Below are positions 1,176 to 41,903 of a DNA stretch of 41,903 nucleotides, piece by piece. The stretch spans positions 186,001 through 227,903 of the forward strand of contig JAVKOQ020000061.1 of assembly GCA_031835245.2 (NCBI GenBank), in the 5' to 3' direction. The translations under genes and the position numbers were made by a program. The notes under the pieces are model-generated. The model worked only from the letters and a program-made list of their open reading frames with translations. It made no database searches and was not told where the DNA came from. The stretch is from Balamuthia mandrillaris (lineage: Eukaryota). Positions within the stretch are counted from its first letter, which is position 1. Each line of letters starts with the position of its first letter.

Positions 1176-4100
1176 ATGGGTTCCATCGAGGAGTTCGAAA
1201 CGCTGATCACACAGCTTATGTCCCCCGACAACAACTTGCGAGGACAAGCTGAGGCTACGTTCAATAATGCCGTTAAACAAGCTCCGGACCAACTGATCCT
1301 GTCCCTTGTTCAGTTGCTCCGTTCGTCCGGCAACCAACACGTTAGTATTTTACAACAACACTTAGAAACAAAAGCAAAAACAAAAAACGTCCTTCATACT
1401 TTCCGCTAAACCAATCGCAAAATGTGTAGGTTCGTGAGCTTAGTTGCATCTTGTTGCGAAAGACCCTGATCGGGAAGGCGGAGGAGAGCAACAAGCAGGA
1501 GGGCTTCTTCTGGCACAAGCTTTCTGCCACTACCCGCCAGGCCACAATGAACGAGCTCTTGGCTGCCGTTCAACAGGAAGAGCTGCCTTCCGTGAGGAAG
1601 AAGCTGGCCGACGCTATTTCGGAGTTGGCCCTCTTCCTGTCGGCCTACTGCTCTGAGGAGAGCATTCCTATTCAGCAGCAATGGTCCCAGTTGCTGCCCA
1701 CTTTGTTCCAGCTTTCCCGCTCGGAGAACGATAACCACCGCAAGAGCGCTCTGGATATGTTCTCCAAACTGTGCCTTTACCTTGGAGATTCTCTGCGAAC
1801 CAACTTTGATGTGCTGAAGGAAGTGCTCGCTTCTGGCCTCAAGGACCATAGCCTCCAAGTCCGTCTCTCCGCGTTGGGAGCTTCTGTGAGCTTTGTTCAA
1901 CTTTTGGACTCGCCCCAGGAGCGCGATGAGTTCAAGGATTTCATCCCACTGATGTTCGAGGTACTATCTCCTTTTTTTTTGTTGCTTCGTTTGCCATTCG
2001 TTGACCCTTTTGCTTGTCTTGGCGTACAGATCGTAAGCGCTGGACTAAACGCACAAAAGGAGAAGGAGACGCTGGAGGCGTTGCAGATTTTGGTTGAACT
2101 TGCTGAAGTGGAACCCACCTTCCTTCGGCCACACTTGGCTACTGTTATCAATGCCATGCTTACCATTGCCAACACCTCTCAACTCGCCGATGGTACCACC
2201 TCTTCTTTTCGTTAACGATGGTTATGTTCAGTTGTTAAGCTGTTGCCTTTCTTTGCGTAGCCATTCGCCAGCTTGGCTTGGAGTTCTTGGTCACATTGGC
2301 TGAACAGCGCCCCGGCATGGTCCGCAAAATCCCTTCGTTTGTGCAGAATTTGATCCCTGTAGTTTTGAACTTCATGTTGGCCTTGGAAGACGACCCTGAA
2401 TGGGAAGAAAGCGAGGACGACGAAGATTCTGTGGAAGTGCGAACAAGCGAGGTTGGTGACGAGTGCATGGACCGCTTGGCTTTGGCGCTTGGTATGTTAT
2501 CTTTCACACCCCACCCTTGTGGGCATTTCGTTTATTCTTTGATATATCACTTACAATGCTGTTTCCATATGGTTAGGAGGAAAAACATTGACACCCATCC
2601 TGTTTAACCTTATCCCCAGCCTTCTGTCTCATGAGGACTGGAAGCACCGACACACTGGTCTTATGGCTATTTCCTTGGTAGGAGAAGGTTGTTCCCGGTT
2701 CCTAAAGCCTCACTTGGGAGAAGTTCTCGAGTACGTTTTCCTTTCAGATCTTTCACGTACCATCATTGCGCTCATATGTTGTTCTATACAGCCTCATCTT
2801 GCCCAAAGTCAGCGACCCACACCCCCGTGTCCGCTGGGCTGCCTGTAACACTATTGGTCAAATGTCTTCCGACTTTGGAGTGAGTTTTCCGTCTCTTATC
2901 TAATATTATTATTAATCTTTAAAGCTAACTGAACTCGCCATTCAGCCAACTATCCAGAGAAAGTTCCATGACAAGCTCATTCCTGCCTTGGTTCAGGTCA
3001 TGGAAGACAAGGACCACCCTAGGTAATTTCTCTGTCTATACTTTTTAAATATATGAAGTTCTCACCTTTACAATTGCATAGAGTGCAATCCCACGCGGCC
3101 TCTGCTGTCATCAACTTTTGCGAGCACTGCACCAGCCCTCTGTTGGAACCTTACCTTGATGGCCTTTTGGGCAAACTTGTGGGTTTGCTGCAAGGAGGAA
3201 AGAAGATTGTGCAAGAGCAAGCCATTACCGCCGTTGCTGCGATTGCTGATGTTGTAGAGGACAAATTCACACGGTATTACGATACCTTCATCCCGTTCCT
3301 CAAGAACATCTTGTTCAACGCTACAGGCAAGGAATTCCGGCTGCTGCGCGGCAAGGCGATGGAATGCATCAGTTTGATTGGTTCGTTTTTTTTTTCTCAA
3401 AAAAAAAATCACTCCTCTTTGCTGGGACTGACCTTTCCGTTTTACATAGGTGTGTCTGTTGGCAAAGAGAAGTTCAGCCCAGATGCTAGGGAGGTTATTG
3501 AGGTGATGTTGCAAATTCAACAGAAGCCTTTGGATGCCGATGATCCCCAAGTATCTTTCTTATTGCAGGCCTGGGCACGAATCTGCAAGGCTTTGGGTTC
3601 CGACTTTGTTCCTTACCTCCGCCACGTGATGCCCTCTTTGATGCACTCTGCCAAACTTGACCCCGAAGTTACTATTGTGGATGGTAACAAAACCTCTTCC
3701 CAGTAACCAGACGCAGATATTCTCTAATCATATTATTTTAATAGACGAAACGGAGCAAGAAGGCTTTGAGTACAGTTCCATTGGAGACAAGCGCATTGGC
3801 ATTAACACCTCTATCTTGGAGGAGAAAGCAACAGCCTGCAACATGATTTACCAATATGCCTCAGAACTGAAGGAGGGTTTCTTCCCCTATGTGGAGGAAG
3901 TTGCCACTGTCCTTATCCCTCTTATGAAGTTCTACTTCCACGATGGCGTGCGCAGCGCTGCTGTTTCCACAATGCCTTCTTTGCTGGTGTCTACCAAGGC
4001 CCACATCACTCAGTCTGGTGGAGACTTGTCCAACGTGGCAACACTCTTTGGCCATATCTTTAACGTTCTCACAGAATCCATTCAAGCCGAAATGGACTTG

Positions 4101-30928: not shown

Positions 30929-32019
30929 ATGCACTACTACTCCAACCCAGGTTCAGAAGCAGAACCAGAGTTCGTTGAAGCTGAGGGAACGGAGGAAGAA
31001 GAGGTCTCCCGTCCCTTCACAAGCCGACGGGAAAACTTCTCCAGCCTTTCCCCTGCCTTGGTCTACCGTAAGCGGTATCGCGCGCTCAAACGCAAATTCA
31101 CAAGCCTTGAAGAGGTAGGCAGCCCCTACCAACCATACCCACCACGTAAACTCTTCTAACTGTCTGTGGGTCTGAAAGGAAAATGCGGAGCTGGCTGCTG
31201 AGCTCTTCAAGGCAAAGAGGCTGCTCTGTAGACTTCACAAACAAAAGGGCATCCTGTTGGATAAACTACTGGAATATGAGCGACCCGAGGACGCCTCCTC
31301 TGACACAGAAACAAGCCCTAACAGCGGAGACGACCAAGAAGGTTCAGAAGAAGAGTCTACACTACCGCCTTTTCGTCCGATTGCCTCTAGTGCGTCTACT
31401 GTTGCTTCGAATGCCTTTGTAAAGCCTAAAGCACCCCGCAAACCAAAGCGAACAAGGACAGGTATGCATTAGCCACTTTTTTTTCTGGTTGTTGGTTGGC
31501 TCTTTCCGGCTCATTTCCTTGTGTAATGTTTAGAACACTCCAGTCCTACCGCAACAGCCTCCTCCCTTGATAGCAGTGAGAGTGTAAGTTTGTGTGTGGC
31601 AGTAGTTAAGGATCGGCCTTGCAAAAGCAAATCACTTAGTGGATATAAATACTGTTGGGTAAGTTCTCGTCTTATGATTCCTGTGCTTTGATTATTGTAT
31701 TTTGATTGTTGTTTTGGTACCCCAGCACCATGCGCCACTTGATCCAAACTCTCCATTTATATGGTGTCAATACTTGGATCCTAGTAAAAAAAATAAGCAA
31801 TGCAGCATACCTGTTGCAAAAAGTAAAGGCCAGCCTTTTTGTAAGTATCACAGCAAACCAGAAGATAGTATTTTATCAGAAGACGACACCAATGAATCAG
31901 AGTCCCTTTCAGAACATGCTACAAAGTTAACAAAAAAGAAAGAGCAACGCAAAGAAGAAGGTTCCTTACCACCAAAAAAAGACAACTGTCAAGATGAAGA
32001 AGTTGATATTGAGTTTTGA
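30929..32019 (+). CDS. INO80E/TFPT-like coiled-coil protein with a C-terminal C3H zinc-finger-like motif, multi-exon
   Basis: YRKRYRALKRKFTSLEE|ENAELAAELFKAKRLLCRLHKQKGILLDKLLEYE resembles the INO80E N-terminal coiled coil. The last exon has WCQYLDPSKKNKQCSIPVAKSKGQPFCKYH. Confidence 0.7.
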
Positions 32020-32204
32020 ACTATTTGTTCTAAAATACAGCAACTTATTCATTCTATTAAAGAAAGAATATTGTCTGGCTCAATCAAATTTAACTTTCAT
32101 GGTAACATACCTTGAACTTTCTTCTCTTCATTTTGAATAACTTGAGCTTTGAGTAACTAAGGCGGCACCAAGATCAAGCTGATCAATGAGACACTTGGTT
32201 GCAC

Positions 32205-32820
32205 CGTTGATTCTGCCCAAATTAGAAAAGTACACAGTGAGCCAGTCTTTGGTTTGCACAAAGGTGCCAAACCAGGCCATGATTGTGATGAAGAGGTAAA
32301 GTGGTTCCTGCTTTCCATAAGTTCCATAAAGGCATAAAACTTTTTGTTTGAGGAAATGATATTAAGCTTGAGTCATGATCAAAGCGTCAGTGATGCTTGC
32401 TTTTTGCAAATAATGCATTAAGATTTCTCTCATATGCATTTTTCCAAGGTAAGCTAAGGCCTTGTTCTCTTTAGGAAAAGATTCCTTGGTTTTTGGTTTT
32501 GAATCTTTTTATATATAATTATTATTGCTTTGCTAGCAGCAAACCAGATTAGGCAAATGTAATCAGTGTGCCCAACTTTTTGTTCACTTTAAACAATGCA
32601 ATAGTGTGGAGGAGGCATTGCAAGGTTTATAAAAGGAAAGAAGTGATTATTTGCACCTTGTTTGTTTACATAAAGAAAAGTGATCAAAACGGTAACAAAG
32701 ATATTATGATAATCAATCACCAATAAACTTTTTGATGGTCCAGCACTTTGGAGAAGTGTGGTGATGAGAAAAAGGAATGAAAGCAGAGGCTTTGGCTTTG
32801 GCACAACGCTTGCAATGGCC
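32205..32820. pseudogene. Degenerate, internally rearranged relic of the same transposase family as 34968-37194
   Basis: Nucleotide similarity seen by eye. About 32210-32352 matches 36730-36880 in the same orientation, about 32355-32681 matches 36664-36330 inverted (including the intron), and about 32682-32817 matches 36131-36330 in the same orientation. Stops and indels throughout. Confidence 0.85.
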
Positions 32821-32966
32821 AATGCAAGCAAAGTTGTAAACAAGTCTGGAGATTATGGGCAGCAAGAGCAAGTTGGAAGCATGGAAGTTCTTCTGCATTT
32901 TATCAATCTTTGGAAGTAATGTAAACGTAAGGAAATGATAAGAGAGGAAAAGGAAAGGAAAGGATT

Positions 32967-33108
32967 GCTAGATGATATAAAGTTAGTCTGAAAGCTCATT
33001 CAACACCTTTCACTTGTGAATTAAAAAACAAGTGGATGAGGTGTTGTTATAAAGTTCACAAGTGAAAGGTATTGAATGAGCTTTCAGACTAACTTTGTAT
33101 CATCTAGC
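32967..33108. mobile_element. 142-bp foldback / MITE-like element with 54-bp inverted arms
   Basis: 32967-33020 is the reverse complement of 33055-33108 with 2 mismatches; 34-bp spacer. Confidence 0.75.
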
Positions 33109-33834
33109 TAAGCTCAGTTGTTGTCCAACCAAACATCTTCCATTTGTCAAGAAGCTATGCCAAAACTATTCTCTTGTTCCTCTTTCTCCTTCAACTGCAT
33201 ACCTATCAAGGCCTTGAGCTATGGCTTCCTGCTGCCTATTGATAAAGGAACCTGGAGCAGGACTGCCTTTGGTACTTTTTGCACTTTCTTCTACAATAAG
33301 ATTATTGATCTCCTAGTTGAGAGATTCAATCAGGTCCCTGAATCACTGAGAGTGAGAGTATGCCTACCTCAGAGAGCTTACAACCCTTGTGAGAAACACT
33401 GTAGTTACAATCTAACAGCAGTGCCACTTGACTGTTGGTTTGCTGCTTAATGTCATCTACACTTCCTCCAAAAACTGATTTAGGGTGTCCCCTTTGACAA
33501 AACACTCAGGTTTCAAAGCAGGCTTCCATGGATGATTATAGTTTAGAGTCCCCAGGACAAACAAACCTTTGATATATATGAGCACTATTAATAGCCAATA
33601 CTGTTAACTCGGACCAGTAACACAAGAATGCAAGAAAGTGAACAAGACCAAGGAATAGGCTTTAATGGAAAGAAAGTGTCATGACAGTGTGTGTGTGTGT
33701 ATGTGTGTTTGTTACTTGTTCCTGTTCCAAGAGAAAAAAAAAAGAGAGAAAGAGAAAAGAGTTCTTAATCCACTTCATTATGATCATCAAAGACAGGAGG
33801 AGGCTCAAACGGATGTTCCACATGAGTAGAAGAG

Positions 33835-34260
33835 GGGCTAGCTCTATTGAGAAGAGAAGAAGGCACTCAGTCAGGAATAACAGAACCAGTGACGTCTTGA
33901 AGAACATAAGCACCAGCATGATTCCTTTTCTTGACAACAAAGGAATTGTGATGCATGACCTTGTTGCACCTAACACAAACTCGGCAGAGTGCTGAAGGCA
34001 ATTGTGAAAAGAGGCTATCTTGTTGTTGTAATCACTTGTAGCTTCCTGAATAGCATAGGCCAGACTAGGGAATGGAGCTGGTCATTTTGGGAACAGTGCT
34101 CAGAACAAGAAACAAAAAACTTGTGTTGTTTGGTTGTATGAATGTTGACAACTGTAGGTTGACCAATTGCCAATGCAATGCATACTGTCATGCCTGAAGA
34201 CAAAAAAAACAAAGGTGTGGCCGAGGTGGATGTGAGGAACACAACAAAGTTGTCTATATG
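33835..34260 (-). pseudogene. Probable Ty3/gypsy integrase C-terminal relic
   Basis: Frame-shifted pieces TSATPLFFLSSG, LHSLVWPML and SFVVKKRNHAGAYVLQDVTGSVIPD*VPSSLL resemble the late integrase and GPY/F region of gypsy elements. Catalytic core not seen. Confidence 0.5.
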
Positions 34261-34728
34261 CTGTTGTAGCCCTTTCATGGCATTTCTAGTGTATTCTGTG
34301 GTTTTGTCTAACTTGTGCTGTTCTTCTTCTTTGGCAATGTGTTCAGTCTCAGGAAAGCTGGGGATGTCGAGCTCAAGTTGACAGGATTGTTGGAGCATGC
34401 AAAAGTACTCCTGTTGTGCCTTACAAAGCTGTTCACAGAGGGTATTGAGAGCGGCTGTGGCTTCCATGGTGTGGGTAAAAGAGGATTTAATCACTTATGT
34501 AAGCCAAAAAAAATGTTGGTTGAATCCAACCTCAAGAATAAAAGAGTCAGCAATGAGACAAGAAGTATATTCAAGAGAATAGAGGAAGGACAATGAGAGT
34601 GAATCTCCGATGTTGCTTCAAAGTACACTGAGAGAAAGGGGAAAAGGGAGAAAGGAAGGATGGAGAATATAACACAATACAAACAAAAAGGAGAATCTCC
34701 TTTTGCTATTCACTTGGATTATATGGCA

Positions 34729-34960
34729 AAAAAAAATATTTTTCAGGTCTTAAAAAAAATATTTTTCTTAAAAATTAATTTTCAATCAAAAAAATAATAT
34801 TTTTCCTTTAACAAAAATAATAAAAAAAAATGTTTTTTAATTTCTAAAAATATTTTTTATGGTTTGAGAACATTTTTTAAGTTCTAAAAATTATTTTTTA
34901 TAAAGCATTATTAAAAGACATTTAATATAAAAAATCTACTATTAAACATTAAACAAAATA
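34729..34960. repeat. Extremely AT-rich tract downstream of the transposase with an imperfect ~28-bp direct duplication
   Basis: ttttttaa(t/g)ttctaaaaa...tttttt at about 34833 and 34873, among alternating A and T runs. Confidence 0.7.
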
Positions 34961-34967
34961 CAAAGAT

Positions 34968-37194
34968 TTATGAATGCTGTTTTTCGAATCTATCTAATTC
35001 TGCATAAATTTGAGCTTTGTAAGCAAAAGATAATTTGTGATCTGAAGTTAATGCTAAAGGACCCCAAATAAAAGATGCTTGATGTATGTTTTGTGTTTCC
35101 TTTTGTAAAAAATAACATTGACCTCATTTTGTATACCATAATACAGTAGCTTTACAAGGTGTTGTGGAATGAACAAATGCAAGCCAAAAGTCCTCTGAAG
35201 AACCATCTTTTGGACAAATAGCATAAATGTGATTGGCTAAAATATGGAAAGGTATGCAAGTAGCACAACCAGATGTTGTGACTTGAGATGAAAATTCGAT
35301 TGAAGAGGAGGAAGCAGCTGAAGTCAAAGAAGTGGATGCAGAGAATGAAGGAGTATGTTGTCGATTTAAAGCAGTCATAGGTTGAAACAAAGTAAAAAAA
35401 GGATTATCCAAAGGGGATGAAGGGTGTTGTAAATTATAAATCAATGCTTGTAAGCGAAGTTTGGAAGAAAGCAAAATAGTAGAAAAAGTAGATTGAGTAC
35501 CTCGAATGCATTCTTCTTCTACACAAGATTTGGGTATCAAATGAGGAATATGAGTGGAATATAAAGATAGATTTGGAAATCCTTTTATCAATGAAATGGG
35601 TTTGCTCCAAGGAGCATGAATGTTGGATTTCACTTGTAAAATGGGCCATATTGGAGGGCAGGTCATTGTAGGAGTGGGATAAATAAATTTGAAAAATAGA
35701 GGTTGGGAATGACCTTCAAGATTTACCATGAAAGGATGCAACCAACCTTTGAAATCCCAGACCCATTCCAAAGGATGTAATTCTGGACGAGTTTCATCCG
35801 TTAAATAAGAAGAGTTAATGAATGTAAAGAATTGCTCCAAGCTTTCAATATCAAATTTGAGTAATGCTTTACGAAAGGTAGAAAACATTTGATCCACATC
35901 TTCATGAGTATGTCCAGGTGGCAAAAAGCAAAGTTTGATCTTGGAAAACATCTTGAGATGCACCAACCAACATAAAAAGGCCAATAAATACTTGTTTTTG
36001 TTTTCTTTATAGCAGTTGTCAGCTTGAAGGTAGAGGGTTTGGTTGGGATGGGCTCAAATGGGTTGTTGTAATGTTTGCATGAGAAAGTAAAATAAATGAC
36101 TAATTACTAAATTGGCATCACGTGACCACTGATCAAAATGATAACGCAGATAACAATGATGATGCTCATGATCTATCAGTCCAAAACAAGAGATACCAAT
36201 AAACTTTTTGATGGTCCAGCCTTTTGGGGGAGTATGATGATGGGGAAGAGGAATGGCCTCTGTATAATCCATAATGATGGAATTGTATTTGAAAGGAGAG
36301 GCTTTGGCTTTAGCACGATGCTTGTAATACTTCTCTTTGTGTAAAAAAACAAAGTGCAAATGATCACTTCGTTCCTTTTGTAAGCCTTGCAATGCCTCCA
36401 CACTCTTGCATTGTTTAAAACGAACTAGAAGCTGAGCACATTGATCACATTTTCCTAATCTGGTTTGCTAATACAGAAAGCAATAACAATTATTCATCAA
36501 CAGGTTGTTAGAATAAAAACAATGAATCATTCCTTTCTTTTGACAAACTCTCTCAACAAACAAAGCTTACCTTGGAAAAATGAACATAAGAGAAATCTTC
36601 ATGCAACATTTGCAAAAAGCGTGCATAACTGATGCTTTGATCATGTCCCAGGCTTAATACCATTTCTTGATACAAGGCTTTTCGATTCAATATCATTGGA
36701 ATCTGAATGACTTCAGAGTTTGGCAAGGATTCTCCCATATTGGCAAAGTACACTGTGAGCCAGGCTTTGGTTTGCGAATAGGTGGTGGAGTGCCAAACCA
36801 GGCCACGATTGTGATGAAGAGGTAAAGTGGCTCCCGTTTTCCACAAGTCCATGCAGGCATAAAACTTCTTATTGGAAAGGGCCAGCCATAATTGGATTGC
36901 TTTGTAACAAACCAGATGACCAGCCAAAAGCAATCGTTGCTTGGGGGGCCTGACAGCTCTGGTCTCTTGATAAGGGCCATAAGAAAGAAACAAGCAATCC
37001 ACAAGAAATTTGGTTCTGGCTTGTTCTGAGTCCAGTGTCCAATAATAGGTGCGCATCTCTTGAAAATCCTCTGATGAAATGCTGGAAAGACAGTATTGTT
37101 GACAGCAGTAACTGTGCTTTGAAGTCCGGATATGTTGCTCTGAAAAAAACCGACGTGCAGTGCTTTTCAGTTTGGATGGTGGTTGGAAGGCCAT
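34968..37194 (-). pseudogene. Sola1-like DDD transposase with one intron (36468-36570) and two in-frame TGA codons
   Basis: The ORFs 36553-37194, 36054-36401 and 35124-35984 join into one frame: CCQQYCL...FSK|QTRLGKCDQC...SIIMDYTE...QPI*AHPNQTLYLQADNCYKENKNKY...CFLPPGHTHEDVDQMFS...LWYTK*GQCYF...KQHS-TAA (34970-34968). Putative triad: D(IMD), D(ADN), D(EDVD). The intron position is mirrored in the relic at 32.4-32.5 kb. The Sola1 label is from motif memory. Confidence 0.85.
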
Positions 37195-37487
37195 GGTGCT
37201 CTTTTTCTACTGCAATGATGTCCTATCTAAAGAAACCTCATAAGTCAGCCAGAAGAATCAATAAAAGCTAAACACTTTACAAGAAAAAAAATGGCGGCAG
37301 AATAGATAAATAATCAAAAGGGTATAAGAGGGTATTGGCTGTGCTGTATGACACAAGATCTGCCCTTCACAATGAAGGTTGCTAAATTCTTTGTTGAAAG
37401 GAAAGGGCGCTTTTGCATCATATGACGCACTCAACACTCTTGCTTGCTAGAAAAATTTGAAAAAATTTGCTTTTCATTGGATAGGAA

Positions 37488-38483
37488 GGATAGCCAATGC
37501 CTTTCATACAATAGTAGAGAAAGCCGAAGAGGGCTGATCTGCACTGCATGGCATAGCCAATGCCAGCCATACAAAAGAAAAGAGAGCAGAAAAGGGCTGA
37601 TCTGCACCGTATGGCGCAGCCCATGCCTGCCTATCAAAAGAAAAAATGGCGGAAAAAGGCTGATCTGCGCCATACGGTGCAGCCCATGCCCCTCATACAA
37701 AAGAAAAGAGAGCGGGAAAGGGCTGATCTGCACTATATGGCGCAGCCAATGCCTGCAAAACAAAAGAAAAAATTGAGTAAAAGGGCTAATCTGCACCGTA
37801 TAGTGCAGCCCATGCCTGCCATACAAAAGAAAAAATTGTGAAAAAAGGCTGATCTGCGCCATATGGCGCAGCCCATTCCTGCCATACAAAAGAAAAGAGA
37901 GCGGAAAAGGGCTGATCTGCGCCATACGGCGCAGCCCATGCCTGTCATACAAAAGAAAAGAGAGCAGAAAAGGGCTGATTTGCACTGTACGGTGCAGCCC
38001 ATGCCAGCCATACAAAAGAAAAGAGAGCAGAAAAGGGCTGATCTGCGCTGTACGGTGCAGCCCATGCCAGCCATACAAAAGAAAAGAGAGCAGAAAAGGG
38101 CTGATCTGCGCTGTATGGCGCAGCCCATTCCTGCCATACAAAAGAAAAGAGAGCAGAAAAAGGCTGATCTGCGCCATACGGCGCAGCCCATTCCTGCCAT
38201 ACAAAAGAAAAGAGAGCAGAAAAGGGCTGATCTGTGCTGTACAGCGCAGTCCATGCCAGCCATACAAAAGAAAAGAGAGCAGAAGAGGGCTGATCTGCGC
38301 TGCACGGCGTAGCCAATGCCAGCCATACAAAAGAAAAGAGAGCAGGAAAGGGCTGATCTGCGCCGTACAGCGCAGCCCATGCCTGTCATACAAAAGGGCA
38401 GATCTGCACCATACAGCCGATGCCAGCCATACAAAAGAAAAGAGAGTGGGAAAGGGCTGATCTGCGCTGTACAGTGCAGCCAA
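37488..38483. repeat. Tandem array of a 63-bp unit (16 cores), each with an 18-bp palindromic core and an A-rich spacer
   Basis: Cores start at 37539, 37602, 37665, 37728, 37791, 37854, 37917, 37980, 38043, 38106, 38169, 38232, 38295 and 38358 (exact 63-bp period), then 38404 and 38462. Unit approx. GGGCTGAT-CTGCGCCGTACGGCGCAG-CCCATGCCAGCCATACAAAAGAAAAGAGAGCAGAAAA. Confidence 0.97.
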
Positions 38484-38965
38484 CGCGCTAGTCTCGAAAA
38501 TTGAATGCAAGCAAAAAAACAAAAGAAAAAGGGATAATGGCATAGCAATGCTGGTCTCTCTTTCAAACAAAATGCAGGCTGAACAGATTTGACAACTGAG
38601 AACAATACAAACCGTTATGCCTCACAGTCCTTTCACAAGTTGAACTCAAAAGAAAGAATCATGAGGTTGGATGTAAGAAAGCACATTCAAGCCCCTTTAT
38701 TATGAGAACAAAACGCTTTTGAATTTCCTTCAACTTGCTGTCACTTCTTCCAGCACCATATCAGCGATGCTCTCTGTCATTGGTTGCCCTCCACAAAGTC
38801 TGCAGCAAACCACAACGATTTGACTACCAATTAAATGAAATTTGAAAGAAAAAAAAGAGGGCCAAAAGCAAAACAAACTCCCAAAATTTTAGTTTGTCAC
38901 AAAAGTGCACAACCATTCACACCGTTCACACATATTCCTTGCTTTTTATTTTTGCTGTTGTGGTT

Positions 38966-41903
38966 ATGTCGGACAACAAGAGATTGACAGTGAAAGAACT
39001 GCGGCAAAGGATCGACGACCTCAGTGGACAATGGACCACCAAGGACTCCAAATCTGTCTTATCACACAAATTGCAAATGCTACAAACTCCTACGTCGAAT
39101 CCTTCTTCCAACCAACCTTCGGACCTCTCGGAAACAGATGAAGGCTCATCTTCCTCCCCATCCAACAGGTAAAACAACTTGCTCTCCATTTTGGTTTTTC
39201 TGGTGAGTGATTGAGGTTTTTTATGATAGCACTCCAACAAGAAATGATTGGATTTTGCGCGAGAGCGACTTGGAAGCTGTGCATCTATTTTGTGCACCGG
39301 ATGGCGCAGACGAGGAAACCAAAGAGGTGGCAGAACTTTGTAAAACTCGGCTTCAGGAGGGGACTCGTTTGGTTCCGTTGAAAGCTATCACTATGAAAGG
39401 TTTGTGCTTTTATTTTTGTGTTATAGTCAACAGCTGAACGGCCACTATTCGCCTTGCTTCTTTCTTCCTCAAGGGAGAAGGGCCAGTCCAGCTCCATCCT
39501 ACTTTTGCCCTTTCTCTTCTCTCATCCAAATTATTATTTGAAGGGATGGTGTTGACTGCGCCGTACAGCGCAGATCAGCCCTTCAGCTCATTTGCTGCGC
39601 CGGATGGCACAGTTCAGCCCTTCAAACCTCCAGTACTTTAGAAGGGAAATCATTGGCTGCACCATATGATGCAGCTCAGCTCTTCAAATCCTCTGGTATT
39701 TTTGAAGGAAGGGTGTTGGCTGCACCATATGGCGCAGATCTGCCCTTCAGATCAACACTTTCCTTTTATAGTTCGGGTGATGATTGCGCCGTATGGCGCA
39801 GATCACAACTGCTGCCTTAATTTCTTGTTTGGCTGGCAAGAAAAGGTTATAGGCTGCGCCGTACGGCACAGCTCATGCCTTTGGCCTTTTTCTCTCTTGT
39901 TGACTAGTTGAAGGGCATTGGCTGCGCCATACGGTGCAGCGAATACCCTCCACAGTTTTTCATGCCTTCTTTTAACTTTGTACTGTCATTAACTTCGTTT
40001 GTTTTATCAGGTTGGCATCGACCTCTAAAACCAGAGGGGTTGAACAAGCTGCTGGCCACATTCAACTCAGGCGGCATTTTGTCTTTTGATGAACGCTCTT
40101 CTTTATTATTGATGGAACTGCCTTCAGCTCTGTGGGTGCATCCAGAAAGCAATCAACAAGAATATGTATGTCTTGGAGGTAACCATCGATGTGCAGCAGC
40201 CCACGTATTGTACTGTGAAAACTCCCCAAAGCTGAAGGAGTTAACTTGGAGGGCCAAAGTGCTGCCATTTGATGGCAAACAACTTCCAAGTGTGGCTGTC
40301 TTGGACAAGGTACAATTCCTTGGAGTTTTCTGTTGCTTTTTCTGTTTTTTAACAAGGTGACTTACTCATATTTCTTGGAAGTTGTCTGCCTGGGACAACC
40401 TGGTGTTGTCCGAAGGAGTCAATCAAGAGACAGAATGGGATATGGTCCGTTTTGTGTACAATCATCTCACGAAAACACCAGAGGAGCTGTTCCATTATCT
40501 GGTAGGCCTTCTTTGGTTGCAGGCAAGCTTTCTAAAATGATTGCTCATTTTTTCTCTTTTGTGTTGGGTGGGTTTTGTATTTTAGAATTCACAAACTGCC
40601 TCCCAAGATGCCCATAATGCTCTCACCTTTGATCGTGTTTGACGTTTGAAAACAGTGGCAAACAAAATGCAGAAATTCCCAGAGTCTTGGAGTTATATTC
40701 AGGAGAAGGACAAAGAGAAGGGGGGCTGGGTGTTTACTCCTTACCACTTCAGAGAGAAAATGCCAAGCTCCTTATCAGATGAAACCTTGTTGGCAGCCTT
40801 GAAAGAGATATGGGCAAGGCACCTCGAGGATCCCAAGGAAGAATGTTCTGTAACCAACTTCAAAAGATTGGTAAGCTGCATTGCAATCTTTTCTTTCTCT
40901 ATCTTGTCACTACTACTTTTCCTCATGAAACGTGCATACATGCAGATGTGGAAACACATTGGTCGAAAAGCTATGCATGAAGAACTGGAATTGTATCATA
41001 CTGAAAAAGAGATTCCTTTAGCCCACTTGGTATTGATTTCTATAGCATTGAAGTTTAGTTAACATTTCCTTTTGCTATCTTTCATTCATTTATTCATTCC
41101 TTGCTGCTAGCAACACATACCCTCCGATGAACCAGCTTCTCCTCCATTCCACTCAAACACCACTACACCTCAACCCTCTCCACCTCCTTCACCAAAACCA
41201 TCTCATGATATTGAAAGGAAAAAAAAAAGAAAAAGCAAAAAACAACAACCAAAGACCTCTTCCAAACACCAGGCCAAAAAAGCAAAAAACCATCATCGTG
41301 GCAGACCCAAACTCAACACTCCTCCTCAACCCTCCAAACAATTGGCCCACCAACTCAACAAATGGGGAAAGGACGTGCTTGCTTCTCATTCCCCTCCTAC
41401 CAAGTTCAAAGTGATCATTTATGATAATTTACCAACACATGCTCCCTTGATGCTTGATTCCTTGGGAGTACACTGCCAAAGTAAGTCTTTTTTGGGTTAT
41501 TTTTTCCAAAGAACTCAGATTGCTGTCTGTCTAATTTTCTCTCATTCTTCCCAGATCATCATGTGGAAAGGGTTTTGTTGATAACTACCCGTTATAATCA
41601 CTTGCACTTGGCCATGAATCAAATCAATGCCTATAAACAAAAGCAACGTCAGCTTTTGATTAACTTGAAGCTAGAAACAGTTCTTGTTTTTGGGTACAAA
41701 CCTCACCATTCCAACCATAACAACAAACCACAATGGTGTGAGAATGGCATCTTTGTGGCAGTGTGGAACAAAGGCCAAACACAGTTGCAGGATGATTCTA
41801 GTTCGATTACTTCTTCTCTGTTGGCCTTGGAGACATGGCAACCAACTTCAGTGGTGATTCCAATCAAGGGACCTCAAGCTCAGGAAGGACAAGTGGCTGA
41901 TCA
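38966..41903 (+). pseudogene. Spliced gene for a SAP/HeH-like + ParB/Srx-like + AT-hook protein; one in-frame TGA; 3' end beyond the window
   Basis: Phase-consistent GT-AG model: 38966-39168, 39230-39399, 40011-40309, 40382-40501, 40586-40870, 40946-41029, 41111-41480, 41555->41903. Motifs: LTVKELRQRIDDLSGQWTTKDSKSVLSHKL; RLVPLKAITMKGWHRPLKPEGLNKLLATFNSGGIL; YVCLGGNHRCAAA; LSAWDNLVLSEGVNQETEWDMVRFV; HRGRPK. TGA at 40640-40642. Confidence 0.75.
39540..39945. repeat. Cluster of seven copies of the same 18-bp palindrome with diverged spacers, inside intron 2 (39400-40010) of the ParB-like gene
   Basis: Cores start at 39556, 39595, 39657, 39720, 39784, 39854 and 39922. The ATCAGCCC-type flank lies 3' of the core, so these are inverted relative to the main array. 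Confidence 0.9.

What the first reader, a model, noticed from the sequence alone, without database searches (positions are those of the whole stretch)
39400..40010. A 611-bp intron splitting the ParB domain holds seven palindrome copies with divergent spacers
Other introns in this gene are 61-84 bp. Here the 18-bp core and short flanks are retained while spacers differ (core spacing 39, 62, 63, 64, 70, 68 bp), and orientation is opposite to the main array. Core retention with spacer drift argues that the palindrome itself is functional. GAAGGG/CCCTTC flanks allow longer hairpins, so it could act as a second DNA loading site (autoregulation or looping to the main array) or as a multi-hairpin intronic RNA.
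Basis: partly seen in the sequence, partly recalled or inferred. Interest (0 to 1): 0.72.

Follow-up and report, generated by a model that had tools for sequence, protein, structure and literature searches.

The report
Amoeba transposon's intronic parS-like palindrome cluster
A jumping gene of an amoeba carries seven copies of an 18-letter DNA palindrome inside a long intron of its own accessory gene, and these are likely landing sites for the protein that gene encodes, an arrangement already proposed (untested) for algal transposons.

Summary
Observation confirmed: a 611-bp GT-AG intron (39400-40010) holds seven 18-bp palindromes, spaced 39/62/63/64/70/68 bp and reversed relative to a 63-bp tandem array 1.1-2.4 kb upstream. 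Both clusters sit in a multi-copy, CpG-depleted DNA transposon of Balamuthia mandrillaris. It has a DUF7869 (Sola1-like) transposase and a divergent gene with a probable ParB-like N-terminus and a degenerate N4/N6-methyltransferase-like C-terminus. Gene models from two other contigs translate pieces of the cluster, so it is family-wide, not a private insertion. Cores are 91-95% alike at non-CpG positions, intron spacers about 48%; half the core CpGs are deaminated. Covariation, strand-bias, Rfam and spacer-target tests give no support for a structured or guide RNA. Best reading (0.55): a second set of double-stranded binding sites for the element's own protein, working like VANC target arrays or parS. 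Binding, the ParB fold and methylation are inferred, not shown. The architecture is published for brown algae (Sola1-1_Ec32) and red algae (Plavaka PAG3 beside inverted-repeat arrays). New in my searches: an amoebozoan host, an inverted second cluster inside the gene, and lost methyltransferase motifs. No earlier scan note covers it.

The parts
39400..40010 (+). Intron 2 of the accessory gene, 611 bp, GT-AG
   Evidence: same junction in NCBI models P0008, P0001, P0005
39556..39939 (.). Seven 18-bp palindromic cores (starts 39556, 39595, 39657, 39720, 39784, 39854, 39922) with a directional flank, reversed relative to the main array
37492..38479 (.). Main array: 63-bp unit, about 14.4 copies plus a unit at 38462, same core
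37339..37357 (.). Single degenerate unit in the intron's orientation, about 145 bp upstream of the transposase ATG
39292..39309 (+). Core-like 18-mer inside coding exon 2 (4 mismatches; shares the GGAT centre of intron core 2)
   Evidence: the only match at 4 or fewer mismatches outside the two clusters
38966..40501 (+). Accessory gene exons 1-4 (38966-39168, 39230-39399, 40011-40309, 40382-40501); probable ParB-like domain from the end of exon 2 through exon 3, motif GGNHRxxA
40586..41903 (+). Accessory gene exons 5-8 (40586-40870, 40946-41029, 41111-41480, 41555-end of window); in-frame stop at 40640-40642, one exon of other copies missing; leads into a degenerate N4/N6-methyltransferase-like domain that ends beyond the window
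35124..37194 (-). DUF7869 DDD-type transposase gene (Sola1-like by recalled motifs), divergent from the accessory gene
   Evidence: Pfam PF25273 E 8.2e-43; P0016; invariant D275, D310, D352
32000..41903 (.). CpG-depleted mobile region (CpG o/e 0.15-0.31 against 0.66 in host DNA) with CpG-richer islands at the array, exons 1-2 and intron 2 (0.55-0.74); element ends not located

Best explanation
The seven intronic palindromes are likely a second cluster of double-stranded DNA binding sites for the transposon's own predicted ParB-like protein, which would bind each 18-bp palindrome as a dimer, as at the main array, and would likely help keep the element's central control region free of host CG-methylation silencing while tuning its own gene's expression. 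Shown: the intron, the cores, their orientation, their presence in other copies, core conservation against spacer drift, CpG hypermutation of the element, and the divergent transposase/accessory-gene layout. Inferred: the ParB-like fold, the binding, methylation itself (from CpG decay), anti-silencing and autoregulation. The C-terminal methyltransferase-like domain lacks its catalytic and SAM-binding motifs and is predicted to be a non-enzymatic DNA- or chromatin-binding module. The cluster probably arose as an old inverted duplicate of the same repeat unit and stopped being homogenised, so that only the bound positions were kept. This particular copy is broken.
For: Non-CpG core identity is 91% within the intron, 95% within the main array and 93% between them, while intron spacers average 48% (the six spacers against main spacers 37-59%), and all 7 consecutive units keep a core. 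Changes in the core are mirror-symmetric about its centre; at the outer CpG one base and its mirror vary less than the other (4 of 44 against 14 of 44, p 0.016, units not independent), which fits a dimeric duplex reader. The motif is confined to the centre of the element: outside 37300-40010 there is 1 match at 5 or fewer mismatches, in host DNA at 3344, so none near the presumed left end. Family-wide: P0002 matches intron frames at 19/20, 16/19, 20/21 and 6/7 residues over cores 1-2, 3, 5 and 7; P0003 at 16/19 over core 2. Transposase and accessory-gene accessions lie 1 to 3 numbers apart on 4 of the 5 contigs that hold the transposase; the accessory gene is on 10 contigs. 50 of 101 amino-acid differences between copies in exons 1-4 fit CpG transitions, although CpGs are 25 dinucleotides in 786 nt. 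The Atlas model's six listed structural neighbours are five ParB_N clusters and one unnamed, all under the bar. Parallels: Sola1-1_Ec32 (PMC12477816), Plavaka PAG3 beside inverted-repeat arrays (bioRxiv 2025.02.11.637652), VANC21 bound in introns and intergenic regions with local CG hypomethylation (PMC5735166); repressive CG methylation of repeats in Acanthamoeba (PMC12344493). One read pair fits splicing at introns 3 and 4 exactly, so some copy is transcribed.
Against: No binding data. ParB identity is unproven: Pfam, PHROGs and NCBIfam give no ParB hit, and a home-made ParB profile aligns to the right motif but scores 0.3 bits, under the best shuffles (3.8), hhalign probability 1.9% (that alignment included a few non-ParB frames). 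Half the core CpGs are deaminated in both clusters (14 of 28, 26 of 52), more than the 1-2 inferred losses among about 26 CpGs in exons 1-4 of this copy, so the cores are not protected from decay. Intron spacings of 39, 68 and 70 bp break the 63-bp (six-turn) phase of the main array. With cores fixed and spacers shuffled the intron still folds better than controls (z -4.8), so flank pairing is not nil. Cores were found by likeness to the consensus, which inflates their conservation. Only 2 other copies could be seen, through proteins; some contigs may be alleles.
Confidence: 0.55

Rival explanations
1. Neutral relic: an old inverted duplicate of the main array landed in the intron and is decaying; the cores look conserved because of how they were found and because palindromes self-correct or convert one another in either orientation.
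For: Spacers are homologous to the main-array spacer; 14 of 28 core CpGs are lost; unit 2 is truncated (39-bp spacing); copies are pseudogenised and one carries a retroelement-like piece there.
Against: 67 of 70 non-CpG core positions match the palindrome while spacers are near 55-60% with indels; no unit has lost its core; self-correction would keep symmetry but not the same sequence in 22 units.
Confidence: 0.2
2. The sites are bound by the transposase or by a host transcription or chromatin factor rather than by the accessory protein, acting as an enhancer-like cluster for the two divergent genes.
For: The same sequence evidence fits any dimeric reader; a reversed unit lies about 145 bp upstream of the transposase ATG; transposases can themselves activate cognate copies (bioRxiv 10.64898/2026.08.24.746577, passages).
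Against: No motif copy near the presumed left end, where a cut-and-paste transposase would bind, and none at 4 or fewer mismatches in 32 kb of host DNA; algal arrays lie beside the ParB-like gene across families.
Confidence: 0.13
3. The cluster works as RNA: hairpins in the pre-mRNA that ease or regulate splicing of an unusually long intron, or a source of double-stranded or small RNA.
For: MFE -223.7 kcal/mol, z -8.7 against dinucleotide shuffles and z -4.8 with cores fixed; outer GAAGGG/CCCTTC arms in several units; mean Balamuthia intron is 113 nt (bioRxiv 2025.02.25.640156, passage).
Against: Covariation term +0.78; the antisense strand folds as well; per-unit flank z is only -0.86 (sense) and -1.12 (antisense) once left/right composition is kept, and the splice sites are no closer than in shuffles; sense-strand stem changes are 6 G>A to 3 C>T; no Rfam match in the intron; the same core fills an intergenic array.
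Confidence: 0.1

Closest known systems
Sola1-1_Ec32 of Ectocarpus (PMC12477816; passages and supplement rows seen)
   Same: DNA transposon with an accessory gene on the strand opposite the transposase, encoding a ParB-like domain plus an N4/N6 methyltransferase domain; self-binding proposed.
   Different: Brown alga; the passages seen mention no palindrome arrays or intronic cluster; its methyltransferase is predicted to be active, whereas the motifs here are lost. Sequence homology not tested.
Plavaka PAG3 of Bostrychia (bioRxiv 2025.02.11.637652; passages)
   Same: ParB-like accessory gene with adjacent tandem arrays of inverted repeats, proposed as its own binding sites.
   Different: EnSpm/Plavaka transposase; PAG3 carries a 2OG-oxygenase, with the methylase in a separate gene; arrays described as adjacent, not intronic.
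VANC/VANDAL anti-silencing system of Arabidopsis (PMC5735166; passages and section 7)
   Same: Accessory protein binds short motifs amplified as tandem repeats in introns and intergenic DNA of its own element; local CG hypomethylation.
   Different: Mutator-like element, VANC protein family, 8-9-bp non-palindromic motifs; experimentally shown there, inferred here.
Bacterial parS/ParB, e.g. F-plasmid sopC (43-bp unit, 10.7 copies)
   Same: Tandem units each holding a palindrome, next to a ParB-type gene.
   Different: No ParA seen in the part of the element inside the window; eukaryotic introns; motif GNHRxxA instead of GxRRxxA; segregation is not the likely job.
DUF3723 of fungal Starships (PMC9156397, passages)
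   Same: Top Atlas feature hits (0.89-0.90); accessory gene of a eukaryotic mobile element.
   Different: No Pfam PF12520 hit here; tyrosine-recombinase elements; a lead only.

Membership tests
Algal-type ParB-accessory DNA transposons | Accessory gene on the strand opposite a DDE/D transposase | tested here: met
   paired accessions on 4 of 5 transposase contigs
Algal-type ParB-accessory DNA transposons | Tandem array of inverted repeats beside the ParB-like gene | tested here: met
Algal-type ParB-accessory DNA transposons | ParB-like domain fused to a DNA-modifying-type domain | tested here: inconclusive
   ParB part under the bar; methyltransferase-like part supported by weak convergent hits
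Algal-type ParB-accessory DNA transposons | Sequence homology to the Ectocarpus or Bostrychia proteins | not tested
   Those sequences were not at hand; phmmer of P0001 against 1.84 billion representatives returned 3 Balamuthia proteins and one low-complexity hit
ParB/parS (ParABS) | ParB_N domain | tested here: inconclusive
   No Pfam hit; Atlas neighbours ParB_N at TM 0.24-0.32 by query; own models pLDDT 35-37
ParB/parS (ParABS) | CTP-binding arginine patch GxRRxxA | tested here: inconclusive
   GGNHRCAAA aligns at that motif with one arginine, score not above shuffles
ParB/parS (ParABS) | Palindromic sites in clusters near or in the gene | tested here: met
   22 cores in two clusters; comparator sopC
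ParB/parS (ParABS) | Partner ParA ATPase | tested here: inconclusive
   None among the 11 frames scanned; the element runs off the window
ParB/parS (ParABS) | CTP-dependent loading and sliding | not testable with these tools
   needs biochemistry
Sola1 transposons | DDD catalytic triad in a DUF7869 core | tested here: met
   PF25273 E 8.2e-43; D275, D310, D352 invariant in 9 of 9 aligned proteins. Equating DUF7869 with Sola1 is recalled; the defining paper was not held
Sola1 transposons | Terminal inverted repeats and 4-bp target duplication | not testable with these tools
   Right end lies outside the window and no genome is held
Beta-class N4/N6 DNA methyltransferase | Motif order IV ... I and the C-terminal KP-L--YL--T---GD-VLD block | tested here: met
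   14 of 18 phage tblastn rows are annotated methylases at residues 283-325 of P0030, E 0.8-8, partly duplicate records; profile of 4 of them scores 21.7 bits against 6.8 for the best of 1000 shuffles (the four were chosen from those hits, so biased); hhalign 27.6%; Atlas PF01555 rows 0.83-0.84
Beta-class N4/N6 DNA methyltransferase | Catalytic D/N-P-P-Y-type motif IV | tested here: not met
   YDNLPT aligns with DxPY; the aromatic residue is absent
Beta-class N4/N6 DNA methyltransferase | SAM-binding motif I and the following acidic residue | tested here: not met
   AFNPTTG for DxxMGSG and ALF for GIE
VANC/VANDAL | Motif arrays in intergenic and intronic non-coding DNA | tested here: met
   against PMC5735166
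VANC/VANDAL | VANC protein domain and Mutator-like transposase | tested here: not met
   Transposase is DUF7869; the accessory protein has no plant-TE Pfam hit
VANC/VANDAL | Protein-induced local hypomethylation | not testable with these tools
   Only CpG o/e is available
Structured or guide RNA arrays (miRNA-, CRISPR- or TIGR-like) | Conserved structure with covariation | tested here: not met
   (8 units only, low power)
Structured or guide RNA arrays (miRNA-, CRISPR- or TIGR-like) | Unique spacers matching outside targets | tested here: not met
   Spacers are mutual homologues; no match in phages or plasmids, one 13-nt chance match in the window; host genome not searchable

The most novel reading that the evidence does not exclude
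A eukaryotic transposon runs a true parS/ParB system: its ParB protein is loaded as a nucleotide-gated sliding clamp at two inverted parS-like clusters bracketing its own promoter, spreads or loops across the element, and uses a catalytically dead methyltransferase domain to shield it from host CG methylation while throttling its own transcription from inside the intron.
Probability: 0.2. Interest if true: 0.82.

Novelty: new variant of a known kind. Interest (0 to 1): 0.52.

Why it matters
Self-binding by ParB-like accessory proteins of eukaryotic transposons has been proposed for red and brown algae but, in the papers I could read, not tested; one of them names VANDAL as the only transposon known to bind and modify itself. 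This element extends the design to Amoebozoa. The drifted intron cluster acts as a natural footprint: it marks which 18 bp plus about 10 bp of flank are kept when everything else changes, which gives a precise candidate site. If binding and spreading hold, it would be a parS/ParB-like mechanism working on eukaryotic chromatin and a second, independent anti-silencing system.

Tried and rejected
No genome is held for the window, so copies could be compared only through stored proteins; a DNA-level alignment of intron copies remains open. Run search: no RNA holder listed. RNA lay: 2 reads in 1 of 4 runs, none over intron 2, and no control stretch, so no test of splicing or small RNAs there. AlphaFold models were unusable (pLDDT 37.3 and 34.8); Foldseek and VIA searches with them gave nothing above background, which says nothing about the fold. 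PDB sequence searches: nothing relevant. Core-plus-flank pattern: 0 hits in metagenome and viral contigs. No relatives of the accessory protein in prokaryote genomes or viral contigs or by tblastn in phages and plasmids. One metagenome locus with a related transposase (L005, 3.9 kb) shows no palindrome array. Independent insertion with its own target duplication: rejected as a private event because two other copies hold the cluster. Bacterial promoter/terminator scan was irrelevant and empty. Earlier scan notes: nothing for this genome, these words or this protein; one unrelated bacterial note sharing 3 of 180 words. Not in print, as far as searched: ten full-text searches returned no description of this element or of an intronic palindrome cluster in a ParB-like transposon gene. 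Iyer 2011, Bao 2009 and Yuan and Wessler 2011 were not seen; bioRxiv supplements (Bostrychia Fig. S13, Table S6) were not available and might show intronic arrays.

Full report
1. Observation. The intron is real at the stated coordinates: GT at 39400, AG at 40010, 611 bp, joining two open exons; the other six introns are 61-84 bp. NCBI's model P0008 is identical to my spliced exons 1-4 and is probably this locus; P0001 and P0005 on other contigs use the same junction. Seven 18-bp cores lie at 39556-39939 with spacings 39, 62, 63, 64, 70, 68. Shuffles give essentially none. The core is a palindrome, so orientation is read from the flank, and it is opposite to the 63-bp array at 37492-38479. No read covers this intron, so its splicing rests on sequence and annotation.

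2. Context. Protein hits name the organism as Balamuthia mandrillaris. From about 32,000 to the window's end CpG o/e falls to 0.15-0.31 against 0.66 in host genes, except at the main array (0.55), exons 1-2 (0.74) and intron 2 (0.57); intron DNA outside the cores is at 0.23. On the minus strand lies a DUF7869 transposase (E 8.2e-43) with three invariant aspartates; I read its motifs as Sola1 from memory. The accessory gene runs the other way. Its pieces are on 10 contigs and the transposase on 5; on 4 of those 5 the two have accessions 1-3 numbers apart. Some contigs could be alleles. In exons 1-4, 50 of 101 amino-acid differences between this copy and nine other models fit CpG transitions (shared changes count once per model). 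This points to methylation of the family, as measured for repeats in Acanthamoeba (PMC12344493, passages; Balamuthia is not mentioned there). This copy is broken: a stop at 40640-40642 and one exon of other copies absent. One read pair in one of four RNA runs gives a depth pattern that fits splicing at introns 3 and 4 exactly and fits no unspliced pair. That shows only that some copy is transcribed.

3. The protein. No family library names it, and phmmer over 1.84 billion representatives found no relative outside Balamuthia apart from one low-complexity hit. For the N-terminal half the Atlas lists five ParB_N clusters among six structural neighbours, all under the bar, and DUF3723 by features at 0.90. 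My ParB profile puts GGNHRCAAA on the GxRRxxA motif but scores no better than shuffles. ParB is therefore likely, not shown; if right, intron 2 falls just after the domain's predicted first strand. For the C-terminal half, 14 of 18 weak phage tblastn rows are DNA methylases at one stretch, the Atlas gives PF01555 leads, and a profile of four such methylases scores 21.7 bits against 6.8 for shuffles, with selection bias. The catalytic and SAM-binding motifs are degenerate.

4. Is the cluster part of the family? Two mispredicted gene models translate through it. P0002 matches the window's intron frames at 19/20, 16/19, 20/21 and 6/7 residues across cores 1-2, 3, 5 and 7 with their spacers. P0003 matches at 16/19 across core 2, and P0013 at 10/12 at the intron's 5' end. 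Three of 31 stored proteins showed such matches; the rest do not enter the intron or are unrelated. Several of the differences fall on core CpGs.

5. What is conserved. Non-CpG core positions are 91% identical within the intron and 93% to the main array; intron spacers average 48%, and the five full-length ones are 54-59% alike to main spacers against 42-47% for shuffles. A flank of about 10 bp on one side is partly kept. Half the core CpGs are deaminated in both clusters, which counts against strict protection. Variation is mirror-symmetric, and at the outer CpG one base pair varies less than the other (4/44 against 14/44; units share ancestry, and the intron alone is not significant). This is what a dimer reading duplex DNA would leave.

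6. RNA reading. The intron folds strongly (z -8.7; z -4.8 with cores fixed). But the antisense strand folds equally, the flank effect nearly vanishes when purine/pyrimidine sidedness is kept, the consensus has a covariation penalty, sense-strand stem changes are not wobble-biased, and Rfam has nothing in the intron. Spacers match no phage or plasmid. Power is low, so the RNA rival stays at 0.1.

7. Mechanism. Most likely (0.55) the element's accessory protein binds the palindromes as a dimer at both clusters, which bracket its own promoter and first exons, and so helps keep the divergent control region active against CG silencing while limiting its own expression. All functional steps are inferred. 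Rivals: neutral relic (0.2), transposase or host factor (0.13), RNA (0.1).

8. Known systems. Ectocarpus Sola1-1_Ec32 has a ParB-like plus N4/N6-methyltransferase gene opposite its transposase (PMC12477816, passages and supplement rows). Bostrychia Plavaka elements have tandem arrays of inverted repeats beside a ParB-like gene, with self-binding proposed (bioRxiv 2025.02.11.637652, passages). VANC21 binds motif arrays in introns and intergenic DNA of VANDAL21 and lowers CG methylation locally (PMC5735166, passages and section 7). ParB-linked methylases in eukaryotes are reviewed in PMC4738411 (passages). The element works like these systems. Membership of ParABS is unproven; it is not a VANC and not an intact methyltransferase.

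9. Verdict. A real, family-wide feature and a new variant of a recently proposed, untested kind: amoebozoan host, inverted second cluster inside the gene, methyltransferase motifs lost. Interest 0.52; 0.82 if a ParB clamp mechanism holds (probability 0.2).

Noticed in passing
window 32209-32816: Rearranged, inverted and direct fragments of the same transposase gene, 77-87% identical to 36195-36876: an older decayed copy at the element's left side.
   Followed up: partly
window 32967-33108: Near-perfect 142-bp hairpin (65-bp arms, 91% complementary), MITE-like; no clear target duplication seen.
   Followed up: partly
window 33662-34494 (-): Two open frames (139 and 159 aa) inside the CpG-depleted zone, possibly a third element gene; no Pfam hit.
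   Followed up: partly
window 34728-34900: AT-rich repeats of AAAAATATTTTT type downstream of the transposase, possibly subterminal repeats.
   Followed up: no
window 39292-39309: A core-like 18-mer inside coding exon 2 shares the unusual GGAT centre with intron core 2; it may be an eighth site or the trace of the repeat's origin.
   Followed up: partly
protein P0003 against window 39653-40066: This copy's model holds a 7-residue exact match to the reverse strand of exon 3 and a stretch fitting the reverse of core 3 joined to the flank of core 7, hinting at an inversion, perhaps between palindromes. Not checkable without DNA.
   Followed up: partly
proteins P0002, P0004, P0010: Retroelement-like pieces are joined to the accessory gene in three copies; in P0002 the piece lies between core 7 and exon 3.
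   Followed up: no
window 38387-38420: One main-array unit is shortened to 41 bp and keeps only a half core at 38404, giving the 104-bp step to 38462.
   Followed up: no
window 1-32020: Ordinary intron-rich host genes, named from memory of their translations (importin-beta family, COMMD, APC1, ZIP transporter, PAN2, FCF1, RasGEF, NMD3); not searched.
   Followed up: no
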